The notes beneath the pieces were generated by a model. It worked only from the letters and a program-made list of their open reading frames with translations, did not search any database and had not been told where the DNA came from. A stretch of 64,000 nucleotides of DNA, taken from contig MU057416.1 in NCBI GenBank assembly GCA_013265495.1, positions 1,420,545 to 1,484,544 of the forward strand, written 5' to 3'. Both the position numbers and the translations under genes were made by a program. Positions 151-58,907 of the stretch are shown here, piece by piece (the stretch's first letter is position 1; each line of letters begins with the position of its first letter). The stretch is from Vicugna vicugna (taxonomy: Eukaryota).

Positions 151-415
151 GTTTTTTTAATGGAAGTGCAGTCAGCTTACGATGTTGCATCCATTTCTGA
201 TGTATAGCGTCATGTTCCAGTCATACATGCACATGCATATATTCCTTCTCATATTCTTTTTCATTCTAGGTTACTTACTACAGGTATTGAATATAGCTCC
301 CTGTGCTGCACAGTAGGACCTTGTTTATCTATTTTGTATCTAGTAGTTGGTCTCTCAGATCTCGTCCGTATGGTTACCAGCAGGGAAAGCGGGTGGGAAG
401 GGATAAACTGGGAGT
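151..415 (-). mobile_element. 5'-truncated L1 3' end with a short inverted segment
   Basis: T-tract plus L1 3'UTR on minus strand (151-348); + strand L1 piece atggttacc...gggataaactgggagtt; flanked by tcatttca at 143-150 and 416-423. Confidence 0.7.
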
Positions 416-17436: not shown

Positions 17437-18010
17437 TTATTTTTTTTTAATTTTCTAAAAATTTTTATTGAAGTATAGTCGGTGTACACCATGTTGATTT
17501 CTGGTGAACAGCATCGTGATTCAGTTACGCACATTCACGTATATATACATTCCTTTTCATATTCTTTTTCATTATAGGCTATTTCAAGGTATTGAATATA
17601 GTTCCCTGTGCTCTGCAGTGGCCTCACTGTGTATCTGTTTTACATATAGTAGTTTGCATCTGCTAATCCCAAACTCCCAATTTACCCCTCCACACCTCCT
17701 TCCCCCGGTAACCACAAGTCTGTTTTCTATGTCTGTGAGTCTGTCTCTGTTTTGTAAATAAGTTCATCTGTGTCCTTTTTCTAGATTCCACATATGAGTG
17801 ACATCATATGATATGTCTTTCCTCGTCTGACTTACTTCACTTAGTTTGATGATCTCCAAGTCCAACCATGTTGCTGCAAATGGCACTGTTTCATTCCTTT
17901 TGATGGCTGAGCAGTGCTCCACGGTGTAAACACACCACAGCTCTCCCCAGTCAGCTGTCGGTGCATGTTTGGGTTGCCTCCAGGTCTTGGCTGCTCTAAG
18001 TAGCAGTGCC
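17437..18010 (-). mobile_element. 5'-truncated L1 3' end
   Basis: T-tract plus ttattgaagtatagt...; colinear with the L1 copy at 40495-41040. Confidence 0.9.
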
Positions 18011-18824
18011 TGCTCCTAAGGTCGCCGGCTCTGACCCTGACTCAGCTGAGTGAGGAGCTTGACTTCTCAGGCGACGCGCCAAACCACAGAAAGGGGGGAG
18101 TGCAAAACGCAAGGCTGTGTCCGTACCGCGGAGCCCCCACACCCGAGGCGGGAGCCCTCCGGGTTCCTAGGAGATGCAGGCCCTCTCGGCGCGTGGCGGT
18201 TCTGAGCCTGAGCGTCGTCCTGACAGTTAAAGCCACTTTGGCTCTTTGATGTCCCTGTGTGTGTGTAGCTTCTCCTTCCGCAGTTGCCCACCTAACTGGT
18301 AGGTTTCAAGGCATCTGCCGATGTTTTTTCCCTTTCTAATTGTTCTGACAAGGATATACGTCCCGTTCGGTATGGATCCCCCGAGAGAGCTGCTACCTGC
18401 CTCCAATTTTCCTCTGTCACCTGCCAGCCACTTTCAGGGCGTCTTCGTGTTGGGTTAGAAATAGAAATGCCCCCAGAAAGGGGGGGGGGAATCCACCGAG
18501 AAACACTGTATTTCTATTGACGTACAGGCTTATAAAATTCAAATACAATTCCATCCTTTAAAATTTGACATTATTTTAACATGTATCTGAGAAAATAGAC
18601 AGTCGAGAATAGGAAATTTTAGCAGAAAAGGATGAAGGAGGATTTGCCTAATTAAAACCAATTTAAAGACACATTAATTAAAACAATGGGGTAATGACAT
18701 GAGAACAAATACCGATCAATGAAATAGAGCAGTGGTTATAAAATGGGTCCTCAAATATTTAAGGTACCAGGGCATTTATCTTTATTATTTAAATCGCAGA
18801 CTAATGAGGAAGGGGTAGAGTGTG

Positions 18825-19170
18825 TGACACTCACACTGGTCGGAACGGCCAATTACAAAGTCCACAAACAATAAATGCTGGGGCGAGTGTGCAGAAAAGG
18901 GAGCCTCCTGCACTAGGTGGGAGTGTAATTCGGTGCAGCCACTACGGAGAGCAGTATGGAGATTCCTTTAAAACTAAAAATAGACTCACCATATGATCCA
19001 GCAGTCCCACTCCTGGGCGTACATCCAGAGAAGATGAAAACTGTAATTCAAAAAGGCACCTGCACCCCAGTGCCCACAGCAGCACTGTTTACAACAGCCA
19101 AAACACGGAAACAGCCCGACGTCCACCCATAGACACCGGGTAGAGGAGCTGTGCTGTATACACAATGGGA
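18825..19170 (+). mobile_element. L1 ORF2 C-terminal fragment, GC-shifted
   Basis: cagccactacggagagcagtatggagattcc...atgatccagcagtcccactcctgggc. Confidence 0.85.
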
Positions 19171-21815
19171 CACTACACGTGGATCAGTGACTGCCGGTGG
19201 CTGTCCCGGCCCAGGGCAGCCCCTGCTCTGTCCTCGCCCCTGGGACCAGGCAGCACCATTCAAACAAGGAGGACCGAGTCCAGAGCAGCAGACTGGCTGC
19301 CTCGCGGTTCAACCCCGCCTCAAGTTCTGAAGGAGAGATGGGCAAAGCCCCTTTAAGGAACAGCAAGGGTCAGCAGAAGACCAGATTTTTAAAAAACAAA
19401 CTTCATAACTTAAAGCACCAACAGCGCCTGGGTGCGAAGCTCCCCCACTAGCACCAGACCTGGATGCGGTGGCAGGAGGGAGGGACAGGCCACGTGCTGT
19501 TAGAGCGGAGGGGAAGCAGGTCCAGTGTGTGGGGTCTCCTTTGTCCTGAAAGATCGGAAGGTGGTGTGGCCTGACCTCTCGGGCAGCCGTGCGGCTGGCG
19601 GGGCCTGACGGTGATGAAGCTTGTTCCAAGCTGCGCGTGTGGTTTAGATTCTTAAATCTTCAAGGGTGACAGGCATTCTTCTTTGCCAGCATTGCTTCAC
19701 ACCTGAAGTCCCCGAGGGCCCCGAGTGGCCGGCAGGGAGCGGTTACCATGACGACCCGGGATGAGCGTGGAGGTGGGACATCACCCGGAGCAGCTGCGTG
19801 TGCCTGGAACACGCTGTTCCGTTCCAGTCTGGCCATCCGACCACCTCCCTCCCCGAGGCAGAGTCGCGCAGGAGGCTTCCCCCAGCCCCAGAGTGCAGGG
19901 TGCACACCCCAGTCCTGCCAGGCGGGAGCCGTGTGGCCCGGCCCTCGTCTCCAAGGAGGAGGTGGTAAGGTTAACGGGAACCTCGCGAGGAGGAATGAAC
20001 AGGGCCTGCGTGTCCCGTCGTGTGCGGGTGGTTCTCCCCACGCAGGGCCGTCCCGGCAGTGGGTGGGTGAGAAGGCGCCTTGTTACTTCTGTTACCCCTC
20101 TGGGCAGCCCTGCCAGGCTCTCGGGCCCTGGGTCACCCATCTCTCTCCTGGACCCGGTAAACCACCATCCTCTAGGGTTTGCAGCAGGAAGTTCAGGCCT
20201 GTTGACGTGACAGGGACAAAGCAGCAGGGGCTGGAAGGTTGCCCTGGGCACCCCACCCAGGAGGTGATCGCAAGCGTTCAGAAACAAATTGACACATCGG
20301 TGCTGGTTTAAGTGAGACATGAGCTGGGCTCTCTAACCTGTCAGCAAGCCTGTTAGTTGGCTAAAGACCCCATAACCGAGGGCTTGGCAGGCTGCCTGGG
20401 GTGGAGTCCTTGCTGTCTCCCCGCCGGGAGACCCAGAGGCCGAGTCACGTCCCTGAGGGTGAGGGGCTGCGCCTGCAGAGCAGGGAGGCCCCACAGATGC
20501 CAAGAAGCACCCCAGGGGACAGCCAGCCAACTCCCGCTCAGGGAGCAGAAAGGGCAGGAGGGACAGGCTGTCGCCTCTCCCGGCCCTGCCCTCCCCAGTC
20601 ACCTCTGCCTCCAGGAGGGAGCAGGTCTGCAGGGTGAAAACAGACCCCTCTCCCCTGTCTGGACCTGGCTTCAGCACTGCCAGAGGCCCGTCAGCGATCT
20701 GACTTCCCTGCAGCGCTACTGTTAGCTGATCCCGTGTACAGATCTGCGGTGTGTAACACACATGGCTGTGAGGAAATTAAGGTTTCAAGAACATTTTTGA
20801 TTTATTCAGTTCAATCCTATTTGTAAAAAGCTAATCAGGTTCAGTTTCCAGAATCACCCACACGAATTTTATAGTCCCGTTCAGCCTTTAAACGGCAGTA
20901 GGGCAAACGCTCCGGTTACTCAGAAGCACCTACAGTCGGAATCAGCGCTGAGGAGTTTAGTGGTCAGTTTCTGGTGGTTTCATATGTTTGTGCTACATTA
21001 GGAATGTTAACATACTCAAGAGTTTGCACTGTTGGGTGTTAGTTTGTACTCTTGTCCTGGGCTAGTTAAGCAGAAAACCGCGGGAGAACGGACATTCCCT
21101 GATTTTCACCGCAGATTCGGAGGACGTGCGGGTGAGCCGTCCTGGGCTGCCTTCCATCTGAGCCCTCGGCCAGCAGGGACCAGGGCGGACGCCGTGTCAC
21201 GACTCCCGCACGGGGACGGCAGGGCCCCAGAGCACAGGGAGCCCCACCCGGACGGGACGGGACGGCCCTGAGACCCGCCCCCGCCGCGCGAGAGGACAGA
21301 ACACAGCTCGGTCTCTCAGGACTGGGAAGACCGTGGAAGGCATTGCAGTTGGCACAGGATACCCCTCGGCTCTGAGATAAGGGGTAGCTTTTTAAATCTT
21401 TCCCCAAAATGGGTGTTAGGTTTAAAAGAAAACCCTTCCTACTCTGAAAAGGGGCAGAGTCTCAGGGCCCTGTGTGGCCGCTGGCCGGCAGGTCCCTCGG
21501 GATGACGGTGGCCTGAGTGCCCCCCGGGTACCCCTGCTCTGGGTGTCTTCACCCACGGTGTCGGCCACGAGCGGCCCGTGACCCAGCGGCAAGTCTGCAG
21601 CCTGGGGCCCTCACGTGCTTTGTTCCCTGGAGATAACTGAAGAGTGGGTTCTGCTCTTTTTTTGGGGCAGTTGCCCTAAAATATCATCGTGAAAATAAGG
21701 ACCATCTGTTGGAAGGTATTAAGCTGGTGGTTCTTCACCTGCTCAACGAAAATGTCTGGGGAGGTTTAGAAACGTACAGGCCGTCCCCACCCCTCCCCAC
21801 CCCACCCCAGTGGAA

Positions 21816-26767: not shown

Positions 26768-26993
26768 TCAGTCTTCTGCTCCGGGGCCTTGGTTACACGC
26801 GTCCCAAGGTTCCAGCAGATCCGGTCTTTCTTCAGATTCAAAACACAAGAGGAGCGAGGTGGCCAGAGACCCCAAGGCCCCGTGGTCCCCCCGAGCCCTG
26901 CTCCCCGCAGAGCTTCGGGCAGAGGCAGGGCCCCGTGCCTGGACGGCTCTGGCCGAGCTGCAGAGACTCCAGATACAATTCTTGAGAAGGCTC
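26768..26993 (-). CDS. KIF14: KIF14 terminal exon, visible coding part: ...SLLKNCIWSLCSSARAVQARG...SLATSLLLCFESEERPDLLEPWDACNQGPGAED*; acceptor hidden in the N gap
   Basis: LLLCFESEERPDLLEPW matches the recalled KIF14 C-terminal motif; TGA at 26768-26770; 5' end lies in gap 26994-27107. Confidence 0.85.
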
Positions 26994-27107
26994 NNNNNNN
27001 NNNNNNNNNNNNNNNNNNNNNNNNNNNNNNNNNNNNNNNNNNNNNNNNNNNNNNNNNNNNNNNNNNNNNNNNNNNNNNNNNNNNNNNNNNNNNNNNNNNN
27101 NNNNNNN
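26994..27107. other. Assembly gap (N run); other gaps at 3387-3425 and 63433-63524
   Basis: N bases. Confidence 1.
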
Positions 27108-27430
27108 GGAGATCAGCCTTTCCGGTTCTCACCAGGCGTTAGTGCTGTGCCGACCCGAGAGGCACTTAAGCCAAAGCCACCCTCTCCAGACAGCTTCAAG
27201 CTGCTTAAGATTATCCCGTTCGGCTGCTAAGTAAGCAGCCCGGGTTTCAGGCTCTAGTTATTTAGGCCGAGGGGCTTATGTCTATTCAGTGGGGACCCAG
27301 CCACAAGCCCCTACAGGTAATTCATGCCGATGAATTAGGCTTCAGCTGAAGACTCAGACTAGAAATGAAAGGCGTCTGAGACTTAAACTATCACACTGTG
27401 GTGAACTATAAATCCCACTTGGATACGCAC

Positions 27431-27563
27431 CTCTCAGTGCAGAAACAGTCATTTGAATGGTTTGCTCTAAGCCACGTTTTAACTTCAAGAACTCTGGGGC
27501 AAGGTTAACCATCTTCTTCAAGTCTTGGTATTCAGGATTTTCTTCTTGCGTTCTGAAACTCTT
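27431..27563 (-). CDS. KIF14: KIF14 exon ~29: KSFRTQEENPEYQDLKKMVNLAPEFLKLKRGLEQTIQMTVSALR
   Basis: 133 bp, cag (NAGNAG) acceptor, gtgcgt donor. Confidence 0.93.
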
Positions 27564-28326
27564 CTGTGTAAATAGAGTGAATGTTTTAAAAAATGTGTAA
27601 CAGGCTACGTGGCAGTAAGTCTTCATCAGAGCAACTTTAATTGCCAGACTCGGGTCCTTGAGAAAGAGTGCGTCTGACCTCCTCACAGCACTTGACGCTG
27701 CTTCTGCAGGCCAGCCCGAGTTACAGCGTTAACAGCTACTGTTTCCAGAAGAAATTAAACATTTTAATTAATTTAACACAAAGTCCAATCATCCTATTCC
27801 ATGAGAATGAAATACAACAATACCATTTATTATTATCCAATATCATAGAAGGAAAATTTATTTCATTTTTAAGAGCTTAACTTTTTATCTCCCATTCATT
27901 TTAAACATTTTCAAGCCATAGAAATTTCTCTTCTTTTTAATACATTGATTATATACTTGGTTTATATTTTTCTGTTTACTTACGACATGAGAATAAGATA
28001 ATGTCTAATTTTCTGTATCTTAAAACCTTTGAACATATTGATTATTAAACACTATTTTTTAGCCTACACTGACTATTCAAGCAAAGTTCGAGCAGCAGTA
28101 AGACGCAGACAGAATACACACGTGCTGGCCCATCTCTATGCAGTGTGTCGTCATCACTCAGACGTAATCACGACATCCCGGAGAGACGCCTGAGGGACCC
28201 CTGCGCCTGCCCCACTGCACTGCGCGGAGGGGCCGGCGGGCCGCGAGCAGAGCCCCCCCGCCAGAGCCAAGAGCGCAAATACACTAAACAGCACAAAACA
28301 CAGAAGCAGCGTAAAGCTTCTCTTAC

Positions 28327-28401
28327 TGTTTTCCACTCAGCAAAGAGGTGTTCGAGGGATCCGATCAACCCCACGGCACTGGCCTTCATCCGTTTGGTGA
28401 C
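28327..28401 (-). CDS. KIF14: KIF14 exon ~28: VTKRMKASAVGLIGSLEHLFAEWKT
   Basis: 75 bp, tag/gtaaga splice sites. Confidence 0.92.
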
Positions 28402-29795
28402 CTACAGAGAACGGTGAAGCGCGTTACCGCACAAGCACGATGCGGAGCGCACGCGTCGGTCAGCTCCGTGGGCCCTGCCGGGGAGCGGCGTTCTAGTCCA
28501 GAGCGAGCCTGGAGCTCCGTCCCTGAGACTGCGATCGCACAGTGCGAGTGCCTGCTTCACAGAAGCGCAGTTTCCAAGTAAACTGCTCGTTGATTCTGCA
28601 TTAAATACGGAGACCCTCTGCTGTGTGCTACAGCATTGGTAATAGTATTTGCCTATTTAAATATCTATAGGAATGAAACTTCCGAAACCTCCCTTGGAAG
28701 GAGGGGAGATAACTAATACATGAAGCAAAAATTACGCCCTCAGAGCTTTACACACGCATCTTACCAGCCTTACTGAGAAGTAACTGGCGCGTGACACCGT
28801 GTTAGTCTCAGGTGTACAGCACGAAACCTGCCTATTATGAAATAATCACCCGGTGAGTCTGGTTAACGTCCGTCCCCTCATAGTTACAAGATGTTTTCTT
28901 GAGATCAGAGCTTTTAAGACTGACCGTCTCAGCGGCCTTCACATACACCACGCGGTACTGTTAACAGGACACACACGGCAGGCGGTCTGGGAGCCCGGCA
29001 GGCAGCATGCAGACCCTGACTCGGGGCAACCAGGCGGGGTCCCCGGCTCAGCCAGACCACGGGGCGGCAGTGACGCCCACGCTGCAGGGTGCCGAGGGAG
29101 GTCAGCACTGCTCTGCGTAAGGCACCCGCCCAGGGACCCTTGCCAGGAGTTATTTAATAAACAACCAGCCCACAGCCTGTGACACAGGCGTCCTCACTCA
29201 GGACAGGTGAGGAAACAGGGTCAGGACACTGAGTGACTCGGTAAACGACCGCTGGAAGGTGACAGGCAGTTCATACACACAGGTCTTCAATGACAAAATC
29301 CAGCCCGTCCCCAGGGGCCACCTCGGGGACAGCACAGGTTCTCTGCTTTCATGTTAGTTAGCCGGGGGCGCGGGCAGGCGTGTCTAGGAAGTCCCCCACA
29401 GTCTCCTAGGTTCTGCATCTTGACAGGGAACAACTGATGTGAACACCCCTTGTTCAACAGCCCCTTGGATCAACGAATGGTCGTTTCCACTCTCATGTGG
29501 ACAAAGACCAGGAGGAAAAACACAAGCAGAAGGTGGACACGAGGCGTCACTGACACACTCTGTCCTCCTGGATCCCCGCTGACACCAGCCATGGCAGGTC
29601 CAGCAAAGCACTGCCCGGAGAGGCCGCAGCGCTCAGGTGTAACCGGGAAATGTCATTGGCCTTATCAATAAAAAATAATTCAACACAAACTAAACTAGAT
29701 AAATTTATAGAAACCTCATTCGCTGAGTTAAATTATTTTTAAGTCAACCTTAGACACCTCCGGTGCTGAGCACAGCCCTCTCTTGTCCCTCTCAC

Positions 29796-29918
29796 CTCGC
29801 TAGGGGTGTCCTGCCGCAGGAGTTCACGCGCTAACTCTTCTGCTTTTTCTAGTCCAGAATCCAGCAGATGCTCCAGCCCCGAGCCTACGCCATCACAGAG
29901 GGCGTCCATGAAATCATC
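29796..29918 (-). CDS. KIF14: KIF14 exon ~27: DDFMDALCDGVGSGLEHLLDSGLEKAEELARELLRQDTPSE
   Basis: 123 bp, tag/gtgaga splice sites. Confidence 0.93.
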
Positions 29919-30510
29919 CTAGAGAAACGTTCCAAGTGTTAACTGGCAAATTCAAGTTTTATATTTTTAAAAAATTATCAAATAATTAAGTTATATTTTC
30001 TGCTTATTTTAGGACTGTAATACATTCCAAGTTTATTAATTCAACTAACGCTGGAGTAAGAGAACTAACAGTCTATAAAGGGAAAAAGTCAGCAAGCCTG
30101 TGATTTTGCGTCCCACAGATAACATGCTGGAAGGAATGTTTCTCACCACAGGGTGCTGCTGCCGCTGGAACACGGTCACGTTTAATATCACACTATGTTT
30201 GCAGCAGCATGAACAGTTAAAGCAAGCAAACACACATTCTCTAGAATTACATGAGAATGTGATTTCATTCCTCCCGTGTCGGTCGGCTGAGCAAACCCTC
30301 AGAGTACACGGTACCATCAAGTCAAAGACCCCGAAGGTGCGGAGAGGACCCAGACCATCGGGCACGCTCAGCCCACTTAGCCTGTAACAGCTGTGGATCT
30401 TCCTGCAGAACTAGTAAAAGCATGTGCCATTTTGGAAAATGAAAACTCATCCTGTTTAGTGACACCGTTATCGGATGAAGTTTTCACAGCGGCCCGGCCT
30501 GGCTGGCTAC

Positions 30511-30669
30511 CTGGCCCCCAGCCGCCCTCCTGTCGCTGTTCTCTGGAGGGTGCAGCTCGGTTCCTCTGAGGGCTGCCAACTGGCCCACGCACTTCACAGC
30601 TCGGAGCACAGTCTGCGTCACTTGCTTCTGAGCCTCCTTCACCATTGACGAAATGTCTGAGGAGCAGCC
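30511..30669 (-). CDS. KIF14: KIF14 exon ~26: GCSSDISSMVKEAQKQVTQTVLRAVKCVGQLAALRGTELHPPENSDRRAAGGQ
   Basis: 159 bp, cag/gtagcc splice sites. Confidence 0.92.
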
Positions 30670-32131
30670 CTGCAGGACAGAAGGACCAGGGTACCGGACG
30701 CACGCAGTCACGAGGGCGGGCACAGACGAGACCCACCTGGGGAACACGGAGCCTGCTTCAGCGACAGCGACTGCGCGTCACCCAAGTCTGGGCAGAACCA
30801 GGAAACGTGCAACACGACAGCCATGGCAAAAATGACTCAGATACAGGCCCCCAAGACCTTCCACACACAGGAGTTGGGAGGCAAGAAGGCGGTGACCTGA
30901 CAGAGATGGGCCTGCCCGGCGCTCAGTGGGAGAAGGGTGGCCCGAGCTCCTTCCTGGGCCCCCCCGGGTCTGCCCAGTCTGGAGGACGGGGAACAAAGAC
31001 GCTCTGTTACCAGGAAAAAGTGGGGAGGGGTGCCTGAAACATGCAAACTGAAGGTCTCGGGTGCCCCAGAGCAACGGGGCACGTCCCCACTTGTCCCGTC
31101 TGCCAGGCGACACCAGAGCCCTACCCCCTCGAAAGAAGCGGCTGGTATGACTGAGCTCCGCTGCAGGCCCAGCCCAGGGAGGGCTCGTGGTGGGCCCGAG
31201 AAGGCCCGCCCAGGTGTTCTGGAACCTTGTGCTAGGAGGCCTGACTGTTCGTTTTTAAAGGTGAGCCCGACCCCCTTTGGCTTTGGCGTCGGGTCTCCCG
31301 CACACAGGCGTTCTCTCAGGGGAGCCTGGGCCACAGCAGACGACCAGGCCCCCGGGGTCCGCCCCTCCCTCCACAGTGGCCGTCTTTCACTGGTGCCCCG
31401 GCGCACACTGCCCAGAATAGAGACCACCTTCCCAGCGAGCCTGCCGCTTGGTGGGGCTGCGCGGAGGTTCTGGCTGAGACGTGTAAGTGGAAATGTCAAC
31501 GGCAACTTCAGGCACCTCCCTTAAGAGGCCCCGGCGGCCCTGCCCTTGGCCACTGCGTCTGCCACCGTGTGACCTGAGCTCCCACGGAGCCGAGCCACAC
31601 TCCAGGCACAGCGCAGGGACAGGAGGAGCCTGGGCCCTGAGGACTCGGGGAAGCACGACCACCCAGCCGACTCCAGACTCTGCTGAGATGTGAGCTGTGG
31701 TCTGACGTCCCGGCTGCCTGACCTCATCTTACCTGACAGGAGGGAGGGACGACAACAAAGCCCCTTTCCTTGCCTGGGTCTGCAGGCTGGCACCCCTTCA
31801 GCACCAGCGGAACCCAACCCACACGCAGGGCAGGGCTCCCCGTCCTGCCGGCAGCCCTGCTGGGGCTCGGATGGCACGCCCTGGGGCTCGGCCAAACCTG
31901 CCTCACTAGCCGTGCGACCCTGGCCGGGCGCTCAGTGTCCTCCCTGAGGGCGTGGAGACCAGCGCCGGCCGCCGGCTGGGCTGGGGGCTACAGGAGCTAC
32001 CGCGTGCGTCACTAGGGCTGCCCGCGCCCGGGGCGCAGGTCTAGTTCGGGGCAAGACGCGAACAGGAGACAGTTAATAAATACTTCCTGAGCCAACAAAT
32101 TCTTCTAGAGATGCTCAGCAAGTCACTTTAC

Positions 32132-32313
32132 CTGCAGAAATAACTGTAAGCAGCCTCCTAGTCTTTCCACCTCTTGCCTCAGCTCATCCGGCAGAGCCGC
32201 GGCGCTGCCTCCAGGGAGCTCACCCCTCAGCCAGAGCCTCGTCAGCACCACCAGCTGCTCAAAAGCGCTCGCCACCCGGACGGTGAGCGACTGGGTGGCC
32301 CCGTCGGAGAACA
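32132..32313 (-). CDS. KIF14: KIF14 exon ~25: FSDGATQSLTVRVASAFEQLVVLTRLWLRGELPGGSAAALPDELRQEVERLGGCLQLFLQ
   Basis: 182 bp, aag/gtaaag splice sites. Confidence 0.93.
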
Positions 32314-32474
32314 CTTTGAAAGAAGAAGGAGAGTTATTCCAAGAAATAAGCTCCAGATAAGAGAGCTCAACACGCTCGCCATGAGAACACGTGACACGCT
32401 CAGACGAGGCCGGCAGCCGCCCAGGGCGGGGCGCGGCCTTTCCCGGAGGGGGCGTGCGGGCGCAGGCTGCTCAC

Positions 32475-32699
32475 CGTCACACTGACTGTCCTCATCCTGT
32501 TCCTCGTGAGCTTTGGAAATGGCAAGGATGCCCTCGCAGATTCTCAGGAGGTTACTGATCAGGCTGTCTGCCACGGTGTTTTCTTCATCGTAACTGTGGC
32601 CCAGAAGCTCTAAGGATGAACCAATCAACTCTCTGCAAACTCCGGGAAGAGGCGATTCTGCAGAACCAGGGTAAACGGTGCTCGATTTCCCCGCTAAGC
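32475..32699 (-). CDS. KIF14: KIF14 exon ~24: LAGKSSTVYPGSAESPLPGVCRELIGSSLELLGHSYDEENTVADSLISNLLRICEGILAISKAHEEQDEDSQCD
   Basis: 225 bp, cag/gtgagc splice sites. Confidence 0.93.
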
Positions 32700-34896
32700 C
32701 TGTGTCGACAGAAGACAGCCACCTTAAGCCTCGTTTCCAGGGACAACACTTTCAAACAGAGGCGTTAGCACGAGCGATTTGGAAACACGGGCCAGTGGGC
32801 CCACAGCGGGCTGCGCCTCTGCACGCCAGAGGGAAGACACAGTCCCACGGAGGAGGCAGCCCCCTACCAGCGTCCGTCCCTAGCTTGGTAGCTGTGGATA
32901 CAGATAACGGGGAATCCAAATGTCCCACGTAACCACTGGCTTAATCTTCTTCACTCACTCTCTGGTGACACCTAAGGAACTGCGAGCTGTGAAACCCATG
33001 GCAGGAGCATGAAAGAACAGAAACACAATACATACAAGTGAAATAAATGAAATCAACCCACAAGCTGGGCACAAGGGCAGGGACAGCGCAGAGCATGATG
33101 ACAGGGCCGTCCCGGAGGCGCCTCTCGGCCCCAGGCCCTACTCCAGGGACACCACAGCCAGCCAGGCTGCAGCCAAGGGCCCTCCACAGCCAACCCGCCA
33201 TATCTTGGGGAGGCAGACCTCCAGCACGATTTTCTAAGCTCTGTCCAAACCAGAGGCAAGTGGAAGAGCTGGAAGAGCTGGCCTGCGGCCTCTGGAGGCG
33301 GCTTCGTCCCAGAACGCTGCCACGGGAGCACGGGCTCACTCACTGCGCGAGGCGACTACAGGGGCGCACAAGGAGCAACAGACTGAGAAGGACGGAAAAT
33401 GGAGGCACAGGGTGGGGACGAGGAGGAGTCCAGAGCCATGGTGAGAGCTTGATCTGGGCAGAGAAGGAAGAAAGGCTGCCGGGCACCAAGCCCTGTCGCT
33501 CCCGGGGACGCAGCAGCACCACGATGGCAATGACTGTCCTCTCGTCACTGCGGACAGGCAGCTTTCAGCGTCTGTTTGACGAGACAGCTGTGCTGACGCA
33601 CCCTGAAATCCAGCACCCCCACTGCAGAAAGATGTGCAGAAATTCAGCTTCAAAATAGGGCCCCAAAGGTGAGCTGTTCAGACACGTGGTCAACTCTCCA
33701 AAGCTGGGGTGCCCCCAGCACACCCCCCGCCTCCCTTCCCCGACCTCACGGCTGCCCAGGAGGCGCCCACTGAACACCCGCAGCAGGAGGATGGGGTTCC
33801 GGCTCCCTCTGCAGGGACCCACAAGCCAGCAAAGGCCTCTTCTATTTCCGACTTCCCCTCAGTAGCATGACTTTTTTAAAGGGCCCTTAAAAATGAGCCT
33901 TGAGGAGACGGGTTGAGTCGTCTGGAAAAGGTGCCTTCATAAAGCACCTCTCAGACAACACTGAAAAAGGAAGCTGCTCCCACAGACACGCCGCCTTTGA
34001 TTTTGCTGGTGAACAAGAAGCCTATAGCATATTTTGTTTTACCTTAAACGAGTAACAGGATAACAGTGATCCTCCTAAAAGATACTTTGATGATTAAAAA
34101 AACGAAACCCTAGTGCCTTTATTTTAAAGTCAAGACAAGACGCAGTTTCTTTCGCGGCCACTCGTATCGCACGTGCCTTGACCAAGCAGACTGCTTGGTG
34201 GCAACCGTGCAGCCCTGTTCACTAAGGCGTGGGCGACGTTCTGCGACGTGTGCAGACCTCTGGCGCAGGGCTCCCCCAACAGACGCGCATGCCGCGTGAC
34301 CCCCGCCCCTCCAGCAGGCTCCCGCCTGACCAGCCGTGCTTTTCTGAACTGCTCTGGCTTCTGCGTTTTGGCTGTCCTTGAACTTCCTGCGGGCACATTC
34401 ACCCTCTACACGCTCCTCATCATCTAGTTGCTTCACTCAGCATAGTGTTTCTGGGACGCACCTGGGCTGGATCGGCAGCTGGCTCTTTTCTGTTGCTGTG
34501 CGGTAGTCACTGTCACCGGGTGGTGACGTTAACTACTAGAGGTGCTTACACGCGCAGACTCACAGTGCACCCCCTCTTCTCATGAAAATTAACATTATAG
34601 TCAATATTGGCATAAAATAGTTACTCAGTGGAACAGTGCCTTATTTTTCTTTTAAACTTCATTATTAAAGTAACTGTAATGAATGACACCTGCATACTAT
34701 GTAAAATTCAGGAGAAAACAAAGGGTACGCTGTGAAAAGGAAGTCTTCCCTCCTGTCCTGCCCCGCTTCCCCCTCCCGCGGACAACCAGCGCCTCCAGGA
34801 GACGAAGTTACTTGCACAAGGACGTGAAACGAGGCCGTGGCAGAGACAGGGCTGGATGCTTCTCTCAGGGCCCAACAAAACAGGGTGGGAAGGTAC

Positions 34897-34991
34897 CTGA
34901 CGAGCGTGATGGACGGGCGTCCTGGGCTGAGCAGGCCGCGATGTCGAGCAGACAGCCGGAAACCCTTCTGTTCTTCATCAGACTCCTGCTC
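34897..34991 (-). CDS. KIF14: KIF14 exon ~23: SRSLMKNRRVSGCLLDIAACSAQDARPSRSS
   Basis: 95 bp, cag/gtacct splice sites. Confidence 0.9.
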
Positions 34992-35215
34992 CTGGAAGAG
35001 AAGCCGCGAGAGCGGTCACCCGCCAGGTGGGACGGCGCTCGGGACGTGTGCTTCACGTTCTCTGAAGAACACGGATGCCCACACGTGTGTTTCCAGGGAA
35101 ACTCTGTCCTCCAGCGCTAAATCAATTTGCTTCACTGAGTAAGAATCTTACCCCTTACAGGTGTTACTCTAAGCCTACAGTTAACCAGGGGAGTCGGATA
35201 CACATTCACAGAGCA

Positions 35216-35402
35216 CAGCTGGCCCTGAACACCACAGGGCTTGGGGCACTGACCCTCAGCACGGAAATCTGTCTCACGGAGCCAGCCGTCTGCTACCAGG
35301 CTCCTCTGCGCCCGCAGGTCCAACCCCCAGTCCAGTCACCCTGCAGCATTTACGCCTGACAAGGACCCGCAGTTCAAACCCAAGTTGTTCAAGGGTCAGC
35401 GG
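35216..35402. mobile_element. Tigger2a-like TcMar DNA transposon (MITE-sized)
   Basis: Degenerate terminal inverted repeats cagctggccctgaaca / tgttcaagggtcagcgg. Confidence 0.65.
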
Positions 35403-38400
35403 TCCTGTTCTTCAAAGGCTCTGGACACTGGGCGGAGTAAACACAGCAGACGTGGGTTCCAGGCTCACCGGCATAAGGTCCACAGGAAAAGAGAGAAATT
35501 GGGCAAATGACGACGAGAAAGCACTGTGCTCCACAAGCGAGTGCCCGGGGGCCAGAAGAGCCTCCCGGAGAAAGGGTGCTGGGGGATGAGGACAGTCAGC
35601 CATAACGGGGAGGCAGCGATTCAGAAACGGGCACAGGATGTGGGGAGACCTGGTGATGGAAGGAAGGATGGCACACGCAGGGACCGTCCGGGAGGAGGAG
35701 CGGGCCCGAGGCTGGGCGTGCGGGCCAGACGACCCTGGGTGCCAGTGAAGGCAGCGTGGGCTTGGCCTGGGCACCCCGCGCCGGGCAGGGTGTCAGATGG
35801 GGCCGGCTGGGTCCAGGCACTAGTTGCGCGGCGCGCAGAGGTGGTGCTGGGAGGTGCAGCAGTGGCTCGAGAGGACAGAAGACCTCACCTTCAGATCCTT
35901 TCTGCCGCCTGCCCTCAGCTCGAGGGTGAAACACTCAGCCCCCTACCTTCGAGGGTGACCAGCCTCTGCCGTTGCTCCTCCTGCTGCTGGAAGAACCCGC
36001 CCGCTTCCCCGTCACCATCCGTGCTCGACTGTCTCGACTCCAGGTCCAGCCCCGTGTGTCAGAGAGACTTCCAAGCTGTGACTCGGTTCCAAGTCCAGAA
36101 CCCCCAGCCACCCAAAAAAAACTCTTTGTTGAAAAGATTGTTAAACAAAAGCTTTCTATCTGTAGTCGCCTAAATGTTTCAAATGTAAAATTTCCCCATG
36201 AATTCCTGCAGGACAAGCAGAGATGCGACTGGTAACAGGAGTGGAAAACATCAGCTCTCACAGGCCACAGCTCTTACTCAGCAGTGGCAGGGACGGGTGT
36301 GTCGTCACAGCACGCGTGGACCAGGAAAACGCACCCTTTCAACTGTAGTCAAACAGTGTTCAAACGCAAATAAAAATACACCGGTCACCTTCCTCTCAAA
36401 GAATTTTTACTTAGTATCGGGGGAAATTTTACTTCAGACTGTCAACAGCGCGTATCAAAATGCACAGGCTGCCAAACCGCCCGCAGCCCCACATTCCGGC
36501 CCCACAGCAGCTCCCTGTTCCCCGCTCCCCGCTCAGCCCTGCAGTGGCTCCGCACCCACCTCCCATCACAGGCACTCCTCTGAGGCTGAGCCTTCACACG
36601 CAAGGCTTCGACCAAGAGCAAGTCAAGCTTTTTAAAAAATGATACTTTTAAATTACGGAAGTTGTCAAAAATATCTCTGCCAAATTAAAATGCCTGATTT
36701 CAAAATCTTAGGAAATGTTAAGCTTTGATTTTTCAGTAGCAAGTTAAACATCTGTTGATTCCTTAATCATTATCCTCAAAGTCAGCACATACAAGCTGTC
36801 AGTCACTAACTTTCATGTTATCAACACTCATGTTTGATCCACAATTCTTACCACGTAAAGTTCATAATAAAATAGTAAGAAACTAGTCATTTTTAAATCG
36901 AAAGGAATTTATAAATCACACTCCAATGAATTTGTAGGTCCGATTTGAATTCTGGGGAGGCTCACCTCACTGGCTTCAGTATAAGCCCACCCACCCAATT
37001 CTACTCAAGGACCATTTAGCTCATTTTAGTGCCAGAGCCCAACTCATGACAAATCACCTGCAGGTATCACGGTTTATTGGTGTTGGATCAGAAATCATAG
37101 CCTCTCTGTTTTCCAAGATTTCACATAATTCAGTGCATCTTAGGCTCCCAACAGTACGAGCTGCCACTTACTGAACAGCCCTACAAGGCTGGAGGTGTCC
37201 TCACAGCATCACCACCACCAGTCCCACATTACAGACCCTGGGCTCCCAGGACACGGGGCCTCACAGATGACCTCGTCCCGCCTCCTGATTTCAGATGAGA
37301 AAACTGAAGCCTCGAGACGCCACATCCGGGCCCAGCCACGCAGGGCACGGATGAGCTCTCAGGGCTCTGTAGGAGCCTGGGACTTGTCACAGCACCACCC
37401 CGCAGGGGCGCACTCAAGGAGGCCAGAACCCGCGTAAAGAGCACGCTCTGTATCTCTTCCACCCTGAAATGCTTGGCTGTTACGTGTATAGCACATAAAT
37501 GTATAGCTTGTTCGGTCTTGACTATTTGTTACTCTGCCCAGCAGTCAGGATGCAGTAAACAAAGCAAAAGTAACAGGGAAAAGGTCGCCCTCAAGTCGTT
37601 CCACCTTTGAGGAAATTTCATATAAACGAGTTTACAATAAGCCTGGTCAAAAACAAGAAAGAACTAAACAGGTTTAAAAACCCAAATGGATTCTGACCTG
37701 CAGCTGAAGGCAACGAAGTTAAAAAAAAGTGTCACCAGAAAATGCTGTTCTTCCGTGTGCCAGAGACAGCACACACAGCAGTCGAGAAACCAGGACCTCT
37801 GGAGTCACCAGACCTGGATGCGAGGTCCCTCTGATGAGCCACGTGGCTCTGGACAAGTCCCTGAGCCCCTTGACACCCTCACTACCCAATCCGTGAGGTG
37901 GGGGTGGGCCAGGGGTTCCGTGGAAGGTACTGCAGGAGACACTGCTCACACGTGCTCAGCAGACGCTCCTGCCAATGAGGCTTCTGCTGGACGAAATGCC
38001 ATTGACCTTGATATCCTGAAAAGTCCCTAAGCCCTTCTTCAAAGTTTCAGACCCCAGTATACACCAGGATGACCCCTGGGGACCCCAAGCTCACCATGTC
38101 CACAGATAACCCCTCCTACCGCCCTGCTCAGGGAACACCACGCTCCCCCAGCCGCTTGGCCATGCTGGGACCACAGTTCACCCTGGAGCCCGCGCCACCA
38201 TCAACCCCACACTGGCCACCACATCCCGTGGATTCTGCCTCCCGAGTGCAGGCAAAACCTGGCCCCTCCATTCCCGCCCGGCCTCAGCTCAGGGCTTCAT
38301 CAACGGCTCAGGCCTGTCGTTCCCCAAGTCCTGGCCTCCAAGGACAGGGAGTCTTTTGTGTTCATCTTGGTACCCTTGGGCATGGCAGACAGCGGTCTTG

Positions 38401-39040
38401 TTTAAAAACCAAACTAAGAAGTATTTAAAAAGAAGTATTTGTTTAAAAACCAAACTAAGGTGCAACACTAAATCAAAGAGGAAGGCCCTTCTGTTACACC
38501 ACTCTGCCCCTTTGTAACCTAAGTGTGCGGGCTGTAAGCAGAGCCAGTTTTCACTTGAAAAGCATCTATTCACCGTGGAAGTCTGTGACATTTTAATAAG
38601 CAGAAGTCCTCTATCGCCATGGTGTCTTGTTCAGTGGTGCTCACACTAACCCGACGGCATTTAAAACCATACAACTTACACCACAGTATCATAGAATATG
38701 CCAAGTTTCTGTGAGAGGGCAATTTAAAGTAATAAACACTTAAATTAATTAATTAATTAATAAAGTAATAAATAAAGTAATAAAGTAATAAACACTGTTC
38801 ACTTCTATAGGAAATGAGACTTACGGTATTGTAAATTGCTCTTGAAACTCACCTGGTCACACACTGAGGGTTTTGCCTCCTGTTCTCAGGGTGATGCCCT
38901 AAGTGCTGTGCCTTGATCGGCAACGTGCCACAGCAGGGCTCCCTTCACAGACACCCATCATGACAACAGACAGTTCTTTAAAAAGGAAATGATACACATG
39001 TTCACCCAGAACAAGAAAGCCAATAACCGAGTGTCCTTAC

Positions 39041-39141
39041 CTCCTTCTAGAAAATGAAGAAACTGGTACATCCGTAATGTCAGGTTCCCACTCGTCTGCA
39101 GGGTCACAAAAGACATCTTCACTCCTGTTACTACCGTAACT
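39041..39141 (-). CDS. KIF14: KIF14 exon ~22: SYGSNRSEDVFCDPADEWEPDITDVPVSSFSRR
   Basis: 101 bp, cag/gtaagg splice sites. Confidence 0.93.
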
Positions 39142-40494
39142 CTGAGAAACACAAAACACATAGTTTCTATTAATTATGGGTTTAAAATGTTTAGCAACCA
39201 AGGAAAAAAGTTTAAATACTTCGTCTCATTTATAAAATCAGCAAAGTTACAGGTTATCTGATAAGCCTGAAAGAACCACATTCCTAATAAAAGCTTAAGA
39301 ATCACATGACACTGGGAAATCGTAAGAGTCTAAGAAGCACAGCAGAGCTCACTCGATAATTTAGAAGTAACAAAACTGGGATTTAGAAGACATAATAAAA
39401 ACAAAGAATAGGCTCCTCAGGAGAGGAGTAAAAGAGTAATCTGACAACATTAAGATTCAATCACTTCCTGGTTGAGTATTACTGATCCTGACAGTAATTT
39501 ATATTTTAATCTAAATATTGAAAGCCACCAATTAAAGTTCTAGCAAAATACTATATAGAGCTTGATTCAGAAACATGTAATTATACGTAAAAATAAGTAA
39601 AGCACATCGCAACCAACAGTTGAGAGCAGAATGTAAGGTGATAAATGAGGGCAACTGATCTACCAGGTTCTAACACGTAAGTCAGGCAAGAATTAAATGA
39701 CCTCAGCACAGTTTTCTGTTGTTCTAATTACACAAGCAATTCACATTCATTGTAGAAAACCTGGAAAGTATTAATACAGACAAACACAAAGGAAAAAAAG
39801 GTAAACCCGTCACAAACCCGGCAGGCAGAGGTGGACACCGTCGGCTCTGGTGTGCTTCCACTCGGCCTTTTCGTATTTTCTGCTGCGACCACACCCTCCG
39901 TCCCTGGGGCTAGCCCTGCGCACTCGTGCTGCAAGCGTTCTCCCAGCACAACTGCAGGTCTGACTTTCAAACGTTTCCCTCGGGATTTCCACAGCTCTGC
40001 TCATGTCAGGAGGGTTTTGGAATTCTCTTCTGAACTACCCTTCCAGTTTTTGTGGGTTTTGTTTTGATTTTGACCAGTTATTCAAGCATCATAACCGTGA
40101 CACGTTCTGTTCTTTGCTGTGTTCTAGAGCAGCTTAACCAAACAGGATTTACCTGTTCTCCGGAGGTTCGCAAGTGCTTACCTATGAAACTGACTGGGAT
40201 CAGCATCTTTTTCTTCCAGTTTTTTTTCAGGCTAGTTCACTGACAAAACTTTTCAATTTATTGCCTGGTTGTTCATCTACTAAATTAACTTTCATAATTC
40301 CCCTTTTTCTAGAAAATTTTTTCTTTCTAGAAAATTATCAAACTTAGTAGCATAAAATTTTATCTGTAAGATAATTTTTAAATGTTTTTGTTATCTTTAA
40401 ATTCTATTTCCCATTCCTAAAATCACATATTCATCTTTTAAAAGGGCCAGAGCTTGAATTTAATTCTAATTTACCCATTATTGCTTTTATTTTT

Positions 40495-41605
40495 TAATTG
40501 AAGTATAGTTGACTTATAATGTTGTTCATTTCTGCTGTACAGCAGTGATTCAGTTATAGATATATATTATTTTTCATGTTCTTTTCCATTACTGTTTATT
40601 ATAGGATATTCCCTGTGCTGTACAGTAGAACTTTGTTGTTTATCTATTTTATATATGCTAGCGTGTATCTGTAAATCCTGAACTCCTAATTCATCCCTTC
40701 ACCTCTTTCCTCTTTGGTAACCACAAATTTGTTTTCTATGTCTGTGATCCTCTTTCTGTTTTGTAGATAAGTTCATTTGAATTATATTTTAGATTCCACA
40801 TATAAGTGATATCAGATGGTATTCTTCTTTCTCTGCCTGGCTTACTTCACTTAGTATGACAATCTCCAGGTCCATCCATGTTGCTGTAAATGACATGATT
40901 TCATTCTTTTTTATGGCTGAGTAGTATTCCATTGTATAAATATACCACATCTTCTGTATCCAGTCTGTCGTTGGACATTTAGGTTGTTTCCACGTCTTGG
41001 CTGTTGTAAGTAGTGTTGCTGTGAACATTGGGGTGCTTGTGTCTTTTCGAATCAGATTTCCCTCTGGGTATATGCCCAGGAGTGGGATTGCTGGATCACA
41101 TGGTAGTCTATTTTTAGTCTTTGAAGGAATCTCCGTACTGTTTTCCATACTGACTGCACCAATCTACAGTCCACCAACAGTGTAGGAGGGCTCCCTTTTC
41201 TCCACACCCTCGCCAGCATTTAGTTTGTAGACTTTTTAATGAGGGCCGTTCTGACTGGTGTGAGGTGACACCTCACTGCAGTTGTGACTTGCGTTTCTCT
41301 GGTAAGTAGCCATGTTGAGCATCTCTTCGTGTGCTTATTGGCCATCTGGAAGTCTTCTTTGGAGAAATGTCTATTTAAGTTTTCTGCCCATTTTTTGGTA
41401 GAGTTTTTTTTTTGTTATTGAGTTGTGTGAGCTGTTTGTATATTTTGGAAATTAAGCCCTTGTCAGCGCCTTGCTTGCAAATATTTTCTCCCATTCCCTA
41501 GGCTGTCTTTTCATTTTGTTTATGGCTCTTTGTTGTGAGAAAGCCTGTAAGTCTGATTAGGTTCCACTCACTTAGTTTTGCTCTTACTTCTGTTGCCTGG
41601 GGAGA
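40495..41605 (-). mobile_element. 5'-truncated L1 (~1.1 kb; end of ORF2 plus 3' UTR) in a KIF14 intron
   Basis: ORF 40789..41148 encodes the L1 ORF2 C-terminus (DPAIPLLGIYP...TWKQPKCP...WYIYTMEYYSAIKKNE); TSD tgcttttattttt at 40482-40494 and 41606-41618. Confidence 0.95.
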
Positions 41606-42851
41606 TGCTTTTATTTTTAATGATTCCTTCATTTGCTCTCCTTTGTTTTAGTTTATTATTTCCTAGACTGACTTAACCATTTAGTTTATTTTCATTTTTC
41701 CGTTAAACAATTCAAGCACTAAGGCTGTAATTTGGCAGGTTCTTCAAGTTTTTATATACAATGTCTTCATTCTTGTTATTATTCTAAGTAGCACAGACTA
41801 TAATTCCACACAGTGACATTACTTAATGGTGAGATATCTCACAATTTATGTTGCAACTATTCATTAAATGTTTTAGGGATAATAACATAGTAATATGGAG
41901 AAAAATTAACTTTAGGTTCATTCCCTTCACAATACACCATAACAAATTCTACAATTCAAAGATATAAATGTTAAAAAAAAAAGAATTAGAAGAAAAGACT
42001 CAGAAACGGATACTATTTCTAGACTAATATGTAGCTTCAAATATGCCAAATTAAAAATGCCTGCATAACAAAATGAAACCAAGGAAAAGTCAACATATAA
42101 CCAGGGGAAAAGTGTATAGAATGAATATAAAATAAAGGATCATTATCAAAATATGTTAAGAACCTTATAGACGTTAGCTCATTACCCACACTTCACTTGC
42201 CAAAAACTTCAAAGGACATGCACACATCCTTTACCAACGAGGAAACAGTCAAGCCCCCAGATTCACTAGTTACTAAAACATAAAGTGAAACAAACCAGTA
42301 ACTTTGGTAAAAGGCAGTACTTCCGGCAGGCAAACTGTCAGTGAGCAAAGTCTAACAGAAAATGTATACTTCTGGTACAACTTTAGAAAAGACGGCAAGG
42401 AACTAGGACACTAGGAACTAACGTGTGCAGAGCTGCGCACAACTAGCAGCTGTGACTCTCAGCGCAGCAAACAGTCAGGGACACGCCGCACGGCCCTGAG
42501 GGGGTAAACGTGATCACGTGACAGCGCAGTGCTGGGCACTGGCGGTAACTCACGTGACGCACACTGCCACCTGTCGAAGTCCTTCTTCCCTTACGTTTAA
42601 ATGTAAGATTTTAAAACACAATTGTAACTGAATATATTCAGCACTAAGTTTCTCTATTACAGTCATAACCCTATTAAACCCGTAAAACCCCTTCTGCAGG
42701 CAGCAGGGAAGGAAGTACACATTAGTGTCGGTCGGTTTGGGCAGTGTGGAGCGCCTTTCATTTCACTTGCCAAAGTTTCTTTAATAAGAACATGTCACTT
42801 TTATCCTTTTTACTTCAAAAAGTTTATAGAGATTTTAATAATATTCCAAAC

Positions 42852-42984
42852 CTCGTAAAGTTCTTTCATTGCCGCAAGCTTAGATTCAAACTTTTCCAGA
42901 CTCCAGACAGTTGAGACCCCTAGCTGCAGGTTTCGGACCTGAACACACGTGTCAGAACCACCTCCTTTATCCGGGACAACGTGT
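42852..42984 (-). CDS. KIF14: KIF14 exon ~21: HVVPDKGGGSDTCVQVRNLQLGVSTVWSLEKFESKLAAMKELYE
   Basis: 133 bp, cag/gtttgg splice sites; WSLEKFE..L..M.ELY kinesin-3 tail motif. Confidence 0.94.
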
Positions 42985-43490
42985 CTGAAAGAAAAACCAA
43001 AGGAACCGTGCTTATCCTAAAACACACGCATGCAGTTTTCTGAATCAGAGTAACTCCCGTGAAAATCCAGTCTACTGCTTCAGTCCCCCTGCAGGTACGT
43101 GTTTCTCTTAGAGCGGCACTCATGTCCGGTACATATTACACTGAAATGACTTCTCATATGAAAAGATTTTAATGAAAAATCCTAATGTGTATTTTTTAAA
43201 AATGAAATACTGATAAATTTTCAACTCAAAAGAAAATTAGTAAATTCCAAAAATATCTAAAATTATTCTGTTTATAAAATCTACTAGTGTGTTAATTGCT
43301 GAGAGCCTGGGTCCCTCCAGAGTGAGCCCTGAGCAGGGGCCTGAAGTGTCGATGGGGACTGTGACGCTCGCTCATTCCCAGACCAGCCCTGTAGACCCTG
43401 TGCCTTCAGAGAAGCCAAAAGAAAAAAAATCATATGAAGGTCGACTAGTTTAAAGCAGAGAAGTACTTGACAATTAAGGTAGCTACTCAC

Positions 43491-43584
43491 CTGCCAAAAA
43501 CATAGTTCTTTTCTAACTTCTTGCTGACGGCGTTGGCTTCCTGAATCATCAGGGAGAGTTTCATGGAGCCCCAGTTTGGCTGAA
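43491..43584 (-). CDS. KIF14: KIF14 exon ~20: QPNWGSMKLSLMIQEANAVSKKLEKNYVFG
   Basis: 94 bp, cag/gtgagt splice sites. Confidence 0.94.
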
Positions 43585-45316: not shown

Positions 45317-45443
45317 TTGTGAGGGGCTTGTCCCTGCTGCTCTGGTTTTGCTGTAGAATCTGTACTTCCTTCGCAATTCTTTGCTTCTCAGTTTCTAAAG
45401 CGTCCAGAATTTTGGCGTGGCGGATCCGGTGGTCTTCTAGAGC
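45317..45443 (-). CDS. KIF14: KIF14 exon ~19: ALEDHRIRHAKILDALETEKQRIAKEVQILQQNQSSRDKPLT
   Basis: 127 bp, cag/gtgagt splice sites. Confidence 0.94.
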
Positions 45444-45571
45444 CTGATTGATGTTCATTCATACAGAGCCACACACAGGAATGTGCAAAGAGAGAAATTG
45501 TGAAAAAGACGGATAATGGTAATACAACATAATCCTCACTTCACAGCACGTTTTACTAAGCGTAAAGGTTT

Positions 45572-45623
45572 TGTTTTTTTTTTTTGCCAGTTGATTTTTT
45601 TTAACATTTTTTATTGATTTATA
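45572..45623 (-). mobile_element. Ultra-short (52 bp) L1 3'-end insertion
   Basis: 17-bp TSD actaagcgtaaaggttt at 45555-45571 and 45624-45640; insert matches the terminal bases of the L1 at 60187-60360. Confidence 0.85.
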
Positions 45624-46763: not shown

Positions 46764-46916
46764 CTGTTTTGTAGCCAAAGCCTCCATCTCTAAGCGCTTT
46801 CTGCTGGCGTGTGCTTCCTGCTCAAAACGCTGCTTTGCCTTTTCTAGTTCCTCAATTTTGTGAGTAGCCTTTTGATTATTTATTTCCTGCATTCTCTTCC
46901 TTTGAGATTCTTCTTT
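46764..46916 (-). CDS. KIF14: KIF14 exon ~18: KEESQRKRMQEINNQKATHKIEELEKAKQRFEQEAHASRKRLEMEALATKQ
   Basis: 153 bp, aag/gtaac splice sites. Confidence 0.93.
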
Positions 46917-58876: not shown

Positions 58877-58907
58877 CTGGACATCAGAGTAAGAACTGAC
58901 AACATTC
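58877..58907 (-). CDS. KIF14: KIF14 exon ~7 (31-bp exon): NVVSSYSDVQ
   Basis: tag acceptor, gtaagg donor; restores frame between the flanking exons. Confidence 0.92.

What the first reader, a model, noticed from the sequence alone, without database searches (positions are those of the whole stretch)
17880..18010. Patchy, one-directional AT->GC shift visible between repeat copies in the window (signature of intense GC-biased gene conversion)
Seen: 17911-17940 (gcagtgctccacggtgtaaacacaccacag) and 40921-40950 (gtagtattccattgtataaatataccacat) are the same L1 segment. They differ at 9 of 30 positions, and at all 9 the first copy has G/C where the second has A/T. The rest of the same L1 copy (17460-17880) looks much less altered, so the shift is sub-kilobase patchy. 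Other old repeats (18825-19170, 28770-28960, 48790-48997) also show CpG gain where CpG decay is expected. Established: neutral mammalian mutation is GC->AT biased, and gBGC at recombination hotspots or subtelomeres reverses this. Inference: this locus experienced strong lineage-specific gBGC.
Basis: partly seen in the sequence, partly recalled or inferred. Interest (0 to 1): 0.7.

Follow-up and report, generated by a model that had tools for sequence, protein, structure and literature searches.

The report
GC-shifted L1 patch beside camelid KIF14
About 120 bases of a dead L1 repeat in a South American camelid have had about 30% of their A/T bases replaced by G/C, and the neighbouring repeats and the KIF14 gene lean the same way, which is the ordinary footprint expected of GC-biased gene conversion during meiosis.

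Summary
The two 30-mers differ at 9 of 30 sites. Against outside mammalian L1 copies, 8 are A/T→G/C gains in the 17.9-kb copy and one is a G→A loss in the 40.9-kb copy. Copy-private changes run 81:18 towards G/C in three window copies, against 21:22 in the fourth (p=1e-4). The step at 17886 is modestly supported (permutation p=0.007; scan tests p=0.02–0.29), but the rest of that copy is biased too (20:7). The gains are mostly non-CpG and strand-symmetric, and neighbouring copies share no more than chance, which argues against editing, ectopic conversion and a GC-rich subfamily. The window encodes KIF14. Its protein leans towards GC-coded residues in camelids, but also in hippo, ruminants, pig and bats, so the regional shift is not camelid-only. 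Best explanation: moderate, patchy GC-biased gene conversion (time-averaged B about 1.3). Not obtained: camelid allele frequencies, camelid L1 subfamily states, recombination map, chromosomal position. This scan noted the same kind of thing on other DNA of this genome. Known process, ordinary example.

The parts
17886..18003 (-). GC-shifted patch: the truncated 5' end of L1 3'-end fragment 'copy A' (label L1 recalled; no repeat library was available)
   Evidence: Private W>S 20 of 66 A/T sites, S>W 3 of 37; change-point p=0.007
17462..17885 (-). Remainder of copy A with its A-rich tail; milder bias
   Evidence: Private W>S 20 of 180, S>W 7 of 73; 73.7% identity to copy B over 17462-18003
18010..18240 (.). 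Small GC/CpG peak abutting the patch; candidate centre of the tract (inferred)
   Evidence: GC 0.64, 18 CpG, o/e 0.77
18822..19176 (+). L1 fragment 'copy C', inverted relative to A, overlapping A's last ~90 bases in L1 coordinates; GC-shifted
   Evidence: Private W>S:S>W 25:6; A-C identity 55/95, lower than A-B 68/95
153..348 (-). L1 tail fragment 'copy D'; GC-shifted
   Evidence: Private W>S:S>W 16:2
40490..41467 (-). L1 fragment 'copy B' in a KIF14 intron; unshifted internal control
   Evidence: Private W>S:S>W 21:22, GC* 0.37; CpG o/e 0.25
26774..60948 (-). 3' part of KIF14 (kinesin-3), 25 exon matches; GC3 0.63 overall, 0.32-0.94 by exon
   Evidence: Best PDB match KIF14; one exon 100% to alpaca and 98% to dromedary KIF14; exon map; GC3 over 967 codons in 23 exon pieces, heterogeneity chi2=110.5, df 22
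28770..28960 (.).
   Evidence: 11 CpG, o/e 1.00
48790..48997 (.).
   Evidence: 10 CpG, o/e 0.72

Best explanation
After these L1 fragments inserted, meiotic recombination repeatedly formed heteroduplex DNA over parts of this region, and mismatch repair favoured G/C alleles, so new A/T→G/C mutations fixed more often than their reverse (gBGC). The force is regional but uneven at the scale of 0.1-1 kb, as expected from clustered hotspots: strong at 17886-18003 and at copies C and D, weak in the rest of copy A, undetectable in copy B. It also pushed KIF14 codons and residues towards G/C. SHOWN: direction of change, independence between copies, non-CpG and strand-symmetric character, unevenness, GC-leaning KIF14 protein. 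INFERRED: that the cause is fixation bias, that recombination is high here, that the locus lies near a chromosome end in camelids, that the CpG peak at 18010-18240 is the hotspot centre.
For: Private W>S:S>W is 40:10 (A), 25:6 (C), 16:2 (D) vs 21:22 (B); Fisher p=1e-4; GC* 0.68 vs 0.37. The 0.37 matches the human genome-wide GC* average in PMC2346554 Table 3. W>S per site is raised 2.4-fold (0.182 vs 0.075) while S>W is somewhat lower (0.084 vs 0.128). 99 of 114 gains lie outside CpG; transversions lean the same way (22:8); T>C 53/341 vs A>G 39/207, p=0.35. A and C share gains no more than chance (4 of 49 sites, p=1). KIF14 differences from rhino have the GC-richer residue in alpaca 153:52. 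Cattle KIF14 lies at 80.8-81.3 Mb of BTA16 (PMC6471778, passage); that this is within about 1 Mb of the chromosome end is recalled. gBGC tracts are about 1 kb and cluster near telomeres (PMC3744432, passages).
Against: No allele-frequency data, recombination map or camelid chromosomal position were obtained, so fixation bias is not separated from mutation bias. The outgroup panel is four non-camelid copies. One of them (L005) itself scored 41:12 under the majority method, so that method can give a W>S excess without a known cause. With outgroup-only reference letters, GC* falls to 0.57 for A+C+D. Uniform gBGC with human-like CpG decay does not reproduce the window's CpG o/e of 0.59 in a toy simulation (o/e 0.21-0.33 at GC 0.46-0.55), so a second ingredient is needed. 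The region was chosen post hoc from 64 kb.
Confidence: 0.8

Rival explanations
1. Copies A, C and D come from camelid L1 subfamilies whose source elements already carried these G/C bases; B comes from another subfamily.
For: A and B share 27 differences from the outside copies, so subfamily structure exists. 17916 and 17931 are shared by A and C. No genome-wide camelid L1 set was examined.
Against: A and C differ from each other more (55/95) than either does from B (68/95, 67/95), and their gains fall on different sites. Differences shared by A and B are balanced (12 W>S, 10 S>W). Unique coding sequence (KIF14) leans the same way.
Confidence: 0.05
2. A regional change in mutation spectrum, including germline hypomethylation with slow CpG decay, rather than biased repair of heteroduplex DNA.
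For: CpG o/e is about 0.55 at all local GC levels from 0.35 to 0.6. Lower CpG decay alone (h=4-5) reproduces the o/e in simulation. CpG transition rate falls with GC content in humans (PMC2346554 Table 3).
Against: 99 of 114 gains are outside CpG and W>S per site is raised, which slow CpG decay cannot do. Low CpG decay without gBGC leaves GC at 0.35-0.39 in simulation. It likely acts together with gBGC, not instead of it.
Confidence: 0.1
3. The regional bias is real, but the sub-kilobase patch is only sampling noise picked post hoc.
For: Scan tests give p=0.29, 0.18, 0.02 and 0.14 for four widths. Strength intervals of patch (0.7-3.6) and rest (-0.3-1.8) overlap.
Against: Change-point permutation p=0.007. 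Exon GC3 is strongly heterogeneous (chi2=110.5, df 22). GC autocorrelation halves within about 300 bases.
Confidence: 0.2
4. Ectopic conversion between the inverted copies A and C, or A-to-I editing of the L1 RNA before insertion, produced the changes.
For: The most shifted parts of A and C are the very segments that form an inverted repeat about 1.1 kb apart.
Against: No homogenisation: A-C identity is lower than A-B, and shared gains are at chance level. Editing would give one strand-specific change only, but T>C and A>G rates are equal and T>G/A>C gains are present.
Confidence: 0.02

Closest known systems
gBGC tracts in human and chimpanzee (phastBias; Capra et al. 2013, PMC3744432; passages read)
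   Same: Clustered, mostly W>S substitutions over a few hundred bases to about 1 kb, in clusters, enriched near chromosome ends.
   Different: Those are called on 6-My branches with orthologous alignments at B of about 3. Here the signal is integrated over tens of millions of years from paralogous repeats, and the patch is cut off by the end of the L1, so its true length is unknown.
Runaway GC evolution in gerbils (Pracana et al. 2020, PMC7403616; passages read)
   Same: Clustered regional W>S excess that reaches non-synonymous sites.
   Different: Gerbil core genes have GC3 of 73-100%; KIF14 here averages 63%. The shift here is shared with other cetartiodactyls and bats.
Dog CpG-island hotspots and gBGC-made CpG islands (Berglund et al., PMC4350167; abstract and one results section read); default hotspots in placental mammals (Joseph et al. 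2024, PMC11161765; significance statement and one passage)
   Same: Low CpG decay together with raised W>S rate; the patch abuts a small CpG peak.
   Different: The patch itself is CpG-poor. Methylation state and PRDM9 status were not tested. No camelid term was found in the Joseph main text or its 4 text supplements.

Membership tests
gBGC tract | Excess of W>S over S>W substitutions, polarised by outgroups, in neutral sequence | tested here: met
   81:18 vs 21:22, p=1e-4; panel of four non-camelid copies
gBGC tract | Bias present outside CpG and in transversions as well as transitions | tested here: met
   99 of 114 non-CpG; transversions 22:8
gBGC tract | Strand symmetry | tested here: met
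   T>C 53/341 vs A>G 39/207, p=0.35
gBGC tract | GC-conservative changes (A<->T, C<->G) not or only mildly raised | tested here: inconclusive
   14/660 vs 4/453, p=0.15; B may be younger
gBGC tract | Clustering at about kilobase scale | tested here: inconclusive
   Change-point p=0.007; scan p=0.02-0.29; patch truncated by the repeat's end
gBGC tract | W>S alleles segregate at higher derived frequency than S>W alleles | not tested
   Runs holding neighbouring DNA exist, but no variant data were obtained
gBGC tract | High recombination rate or subtelomeric position | not testable with these tools
   No genome held; only the cattle position is indirect support
PRDM9-independent (CpG-island) hotspot | Germline-hypomethylated CpG island at the centre | not testable with these tools
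   Sequence only: 18010-18240 has GC 0.64 and o/e 0.77, but 55% of the window meets the same criterion
PRDM9-independent (CpG-island) hotspot | Independence from PRDM9 binding; persistence across species | not tested
   No PRDM9 sequence or orthologous DNA examined

The most novel reading that the evidence does not exclude
The KIF14 region is a long-lived, poorly methylated recombination domain in camelids, and in parallel in ruminants, hippo and bats. In it gBGC acts much more strongly on CpG-type mismatches, holds CpG o/e near 0.55 over 64 kb or more whatever the local GC, and has rewritten on the order of 100 residues of KIF14. That would make the published mammal-wide 'positive selection' on this microcephaly gene partly a gBGC artefact, and camelids a dog-like case of default-hotspot use.
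Probability: 0.2. Interest if true: 0.55.

Novelty: new member of a known kind. Interest (0 to 1): 0.25.

Why it matters
As a single patch it matters little: it is a clear example of a known process. Two practical points remain. (1) KIF14 was reported under positive selection across mammals by site models (M8 vs M7 and M8a) in PMC8091745, whose main text has no occurrence of 'gene conversion' (passages read; supplements not read). The GC-ward lean of KIF14 in cetartiodactyls and bats is a likely confounder for the mammal-wide result, though not for its primate-only result. (2) I found no paper on gBGC in camelids in 9 searches (open-licence library only), while this scan lists many similar notes for this genome (unchecked). 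A genome-wide camelid substitution map would therefore be the useful product, not this locus.

Tried and rejected
No whole genome is held for the window. A two-motif pattern found nothing in metagenome or viral contigs; a one-motif pattern gave 4 + 1 loci. L003 was dropped from all counts as a near-duplicate of L002. No read or contig data were obtained for the stretch, so polymorphism, camelid subfamily states and assembly accuracy of the patch stay untested; the 20 runs hold 84-93% of the words of 19200-26900 only. No branch-by-branch direction of KIF14 amino-acid change was obtained; only composition and pairwise asymmetry between living species. Rejected: RNA editing and ectopic A/C conversion; column-specific mutability (other copies are low on the same columns); CpG retention as the cause of the patch (2 CpGs). 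Copy E (61000-61500) vs B was only suggestive and unpolarised (65:45, p=0.07). Exon GC3 does not track flanking GC (rho 0.13, p=0.56). Per-gene GC tables of PMC6636035 could not be read (files too large or without text) and may hold KIF14 values. PMC7288448, PMC6598621, PMC6371769 and PMC13751797 (passages; one section of PMC6598621) gave no position for camelid KIF14. PMC8336415 (passages) has no KIF14 mention.

Full report
OBSERVATION. The two 30-mers are as stated: 9 of 30 differences, all G/C in copy A (17911-17940) and A/T in copy B (40921-40950). Self-comparison of the window gives four overlapping fragments of one repeat: A 17462-18003, B from 40490, C 18822-19176 (inverted) and D 153-348. 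The label 'L1 3' end' is recalled; no repeat library was available. Over the whole A/B alignment, A has the G/C base at 65 sites and B at 25 (p=3e-5). A pairwise count gives no direction, so outgroups were needed.

OUTGROUPS. A motif shared by A and B, just outside the 30-mer, found 5 loci in public contigs. They are mammalian L1 fragments, evidently host contamination; that L002-L005 look pig-like is my recollection, not tested. L003 duplicates L002 and was dropped, leaving four. At the nine sites the outside copies carry B's A/T at eight. At 17926 they carry G, so B lost it. L004 has C at 17917. Copy C shares A's base at 17916 and 17931.

POLARISED COUNTS. Counting only changes private to one copy (it differs while B and the outgroup letter agree), W>S:S>W is 40:10 in A, 25:6 in C and 16:2 in D, against 21:22 for B's own changes (Fisher p=1e-4). 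Implied equilibrium GC is 0.68 vs 0.37; 0.37 is also the human genome average in PMC2346554 Table 3 (passages). The log ratio, a time-averaged strength B relative to copy B, is 1.3 (0.6-2.1). Two other ways of choosing the reference letter gave 91:24 vs 27:25 and 114:44 vs 40:37 (p=0.003, strength 0.8). Against this: outside copy L005 scored 41:12 by the majority method, although the four pooled gave 169:138, so a small panel can mislead for one copy.

CHARACTER OF THE CHANGES. 99 of 114 gains are outside CpG; transversions lean the same way (22:8); T>C and A>G occur at equal per-site rates (p=0.35). This excludes CpG retention and strand-specific RNA editing as the main cause. A and C form an inverted repeat over their most shifted parts, but they are less alike (55/95) than either is to B (68/95, 67/95) and share gains at chance level. 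That excludes ectopic conversion between them and argues against a shared GC-rich subfamily. GC-conservative changes are 14/660 vs 4/453 (p=0.15), so B may be somewhat younger, but its ratio is neutral whatever its age.

PATCHINESS. In copy A the W>S rate is 0.30 from 17886 on and 0.11 before. A change-point permutation test gives p=0.007; fixed-width scans give 0.29, 0.18, 0.02 and 0.14. Other copies are low on the same columns (3/71, 9/72, 5/74, 3/73). The patch ends where the repeat ends and abuts a GC/CpG peak at 18010-18240 (GC 0.64, o/e 0.77); the most shifted end of C likewise faces GC-rich DNA. The patch is probably the flank of a longer tract (inference). The rest of A is still biased (20:7).

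SETTING. The minus strand carries the 3' part of KIF14; one exon is 100% identical to alpaca and 98% to dromedary, so this is a South American camelid. GC3 is 0.63 over 967 codons in 23 exon pieces (6 of the 23 did not match the alpaca protein exactly, unresolved) and ranges from 0.32 to 0.94 (chi2=110.5, df 22). I aligned 24 of the 120 homologues. GARP/FYMINK over 1238 gap-free columns is 1.49 in alpaca, 1.46 dromedary, 1.36-1.40 ruminants, 1.34 hippo, 1.19 pig, 1.00-1.14 whales, 1.15-2.24 bats, 1.09 tenrec, 0.73-1.02 rodents, 0.88 rhino and 0.63 birds. Pairwise with rhino, alpaca has the GC-richer residue 153:52, bison 147:70, Myotis 202:47. Alpaca exceeds pig and narwhal but not bison or hippo; alpaca vs dromedary is 28:20. 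The list was ranked by likeness to a camelid exon and names no primate or carnivore, so it is not an even sample. Cattle KIF14 is at 80.8-81.3 Mb on BTA16 (PMC6471778, passage), near that chromosome's end by my recollection. The camelid position was not found.

UNEXPLAINED PART. CpG o/e is 0.59 for the window and about 0.55 in 300-base tiles from GC 0.35 to 0.6, falling to 0.25 at copy B. Toy simulations with assumed or published human rates give o/e of only 0.21-0.33 at this GC under uniform gBGC. They reach about 0.6 if CpG decay is cut to 4-5-fold, or if gBGC is stronger on CpG-type mismatches. Both ingredients are known (PMC2346554; PMC4350167, abstract and one section), and I cannot tell them apart.

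MECHANISM. Most likely gBGC from clustered recombination in a region prone to it in several laurasiatherian lineages (0.8). Shown: direction, independence, symmetry, unevenness. Inferred: fixation bias, high recombination, distal position, hotspot centre. The defining population test was not run.

COMPARISON AND VERDICT. It works like the human and chimpanzee gBGC tracts (PMC3744432) and is milder than the gerbil case (PMC7403616). Membership as a gBGC tract is met on three sequence criteria, inconclusive on two and untested on two. Earlier notes of this scan describe the same kind of thing elsewhere in this genome (23 fit, 8 shown; unchecked) and none near this place. The one side-result of use is that KIF14's reported mammal-wide positive selection (PMC8091745, passages) was not controlled for gene conversion in the main text. 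Interest 0.25.

Noticed in passing
L005 (NZ_JAUCMW010000078.1, 55-937): A 937-base contig of a Labilibaculum genome assembly is a mammalian L1 fragment (77% identity to copy B over aligned bases): host contamination in a bacterial genome record.
   Followed up: partly
window 2740-3128 and 6981-7364: Direct repeat pair, 68% identical, about 3.9 kb apart, LTR-like by eye; probably the two ends of an old retroviral element, with an assembly gap and a CpG-rich stretch between. G/C differences 44:30, unpolarised.
   Followed up: partly
window 60187-60360 and 45572-45623: Two short AT-rich inserts (GC 0.25 and 0.15) flanked by perfect 13- and 17-base direct repeats: young L1 tails (label recalled) that have not yet shifted.
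   Followed up: partly
window 55607-55777 (minus strand): In this KIF14 motor-domain exon nearly every difference from the solved-structure KIF14 chain is towards a GC-richer codon (I>V, K>R, N>S, T>A, M>V); GC3 0.86.
   Followed up: partly
window 1-64000: 55% of the window falls in 200-base tiles that meet the classical CpG-island criterion, so that criterion is uninformative here.
   Followed up: partly
proteins P0016, P0052, P0065 (bats): Bat KIF14 proteins (Desmodus, Myotis, Pteropus) are even more GC-shifted than the camelid one (GARP/FYMINK 1.96-2.24).
   Followed up: no
window 21816-21972: Short GC-rich, strand-skewed tandem repeat (84% identity between halves).
   Followed up: no
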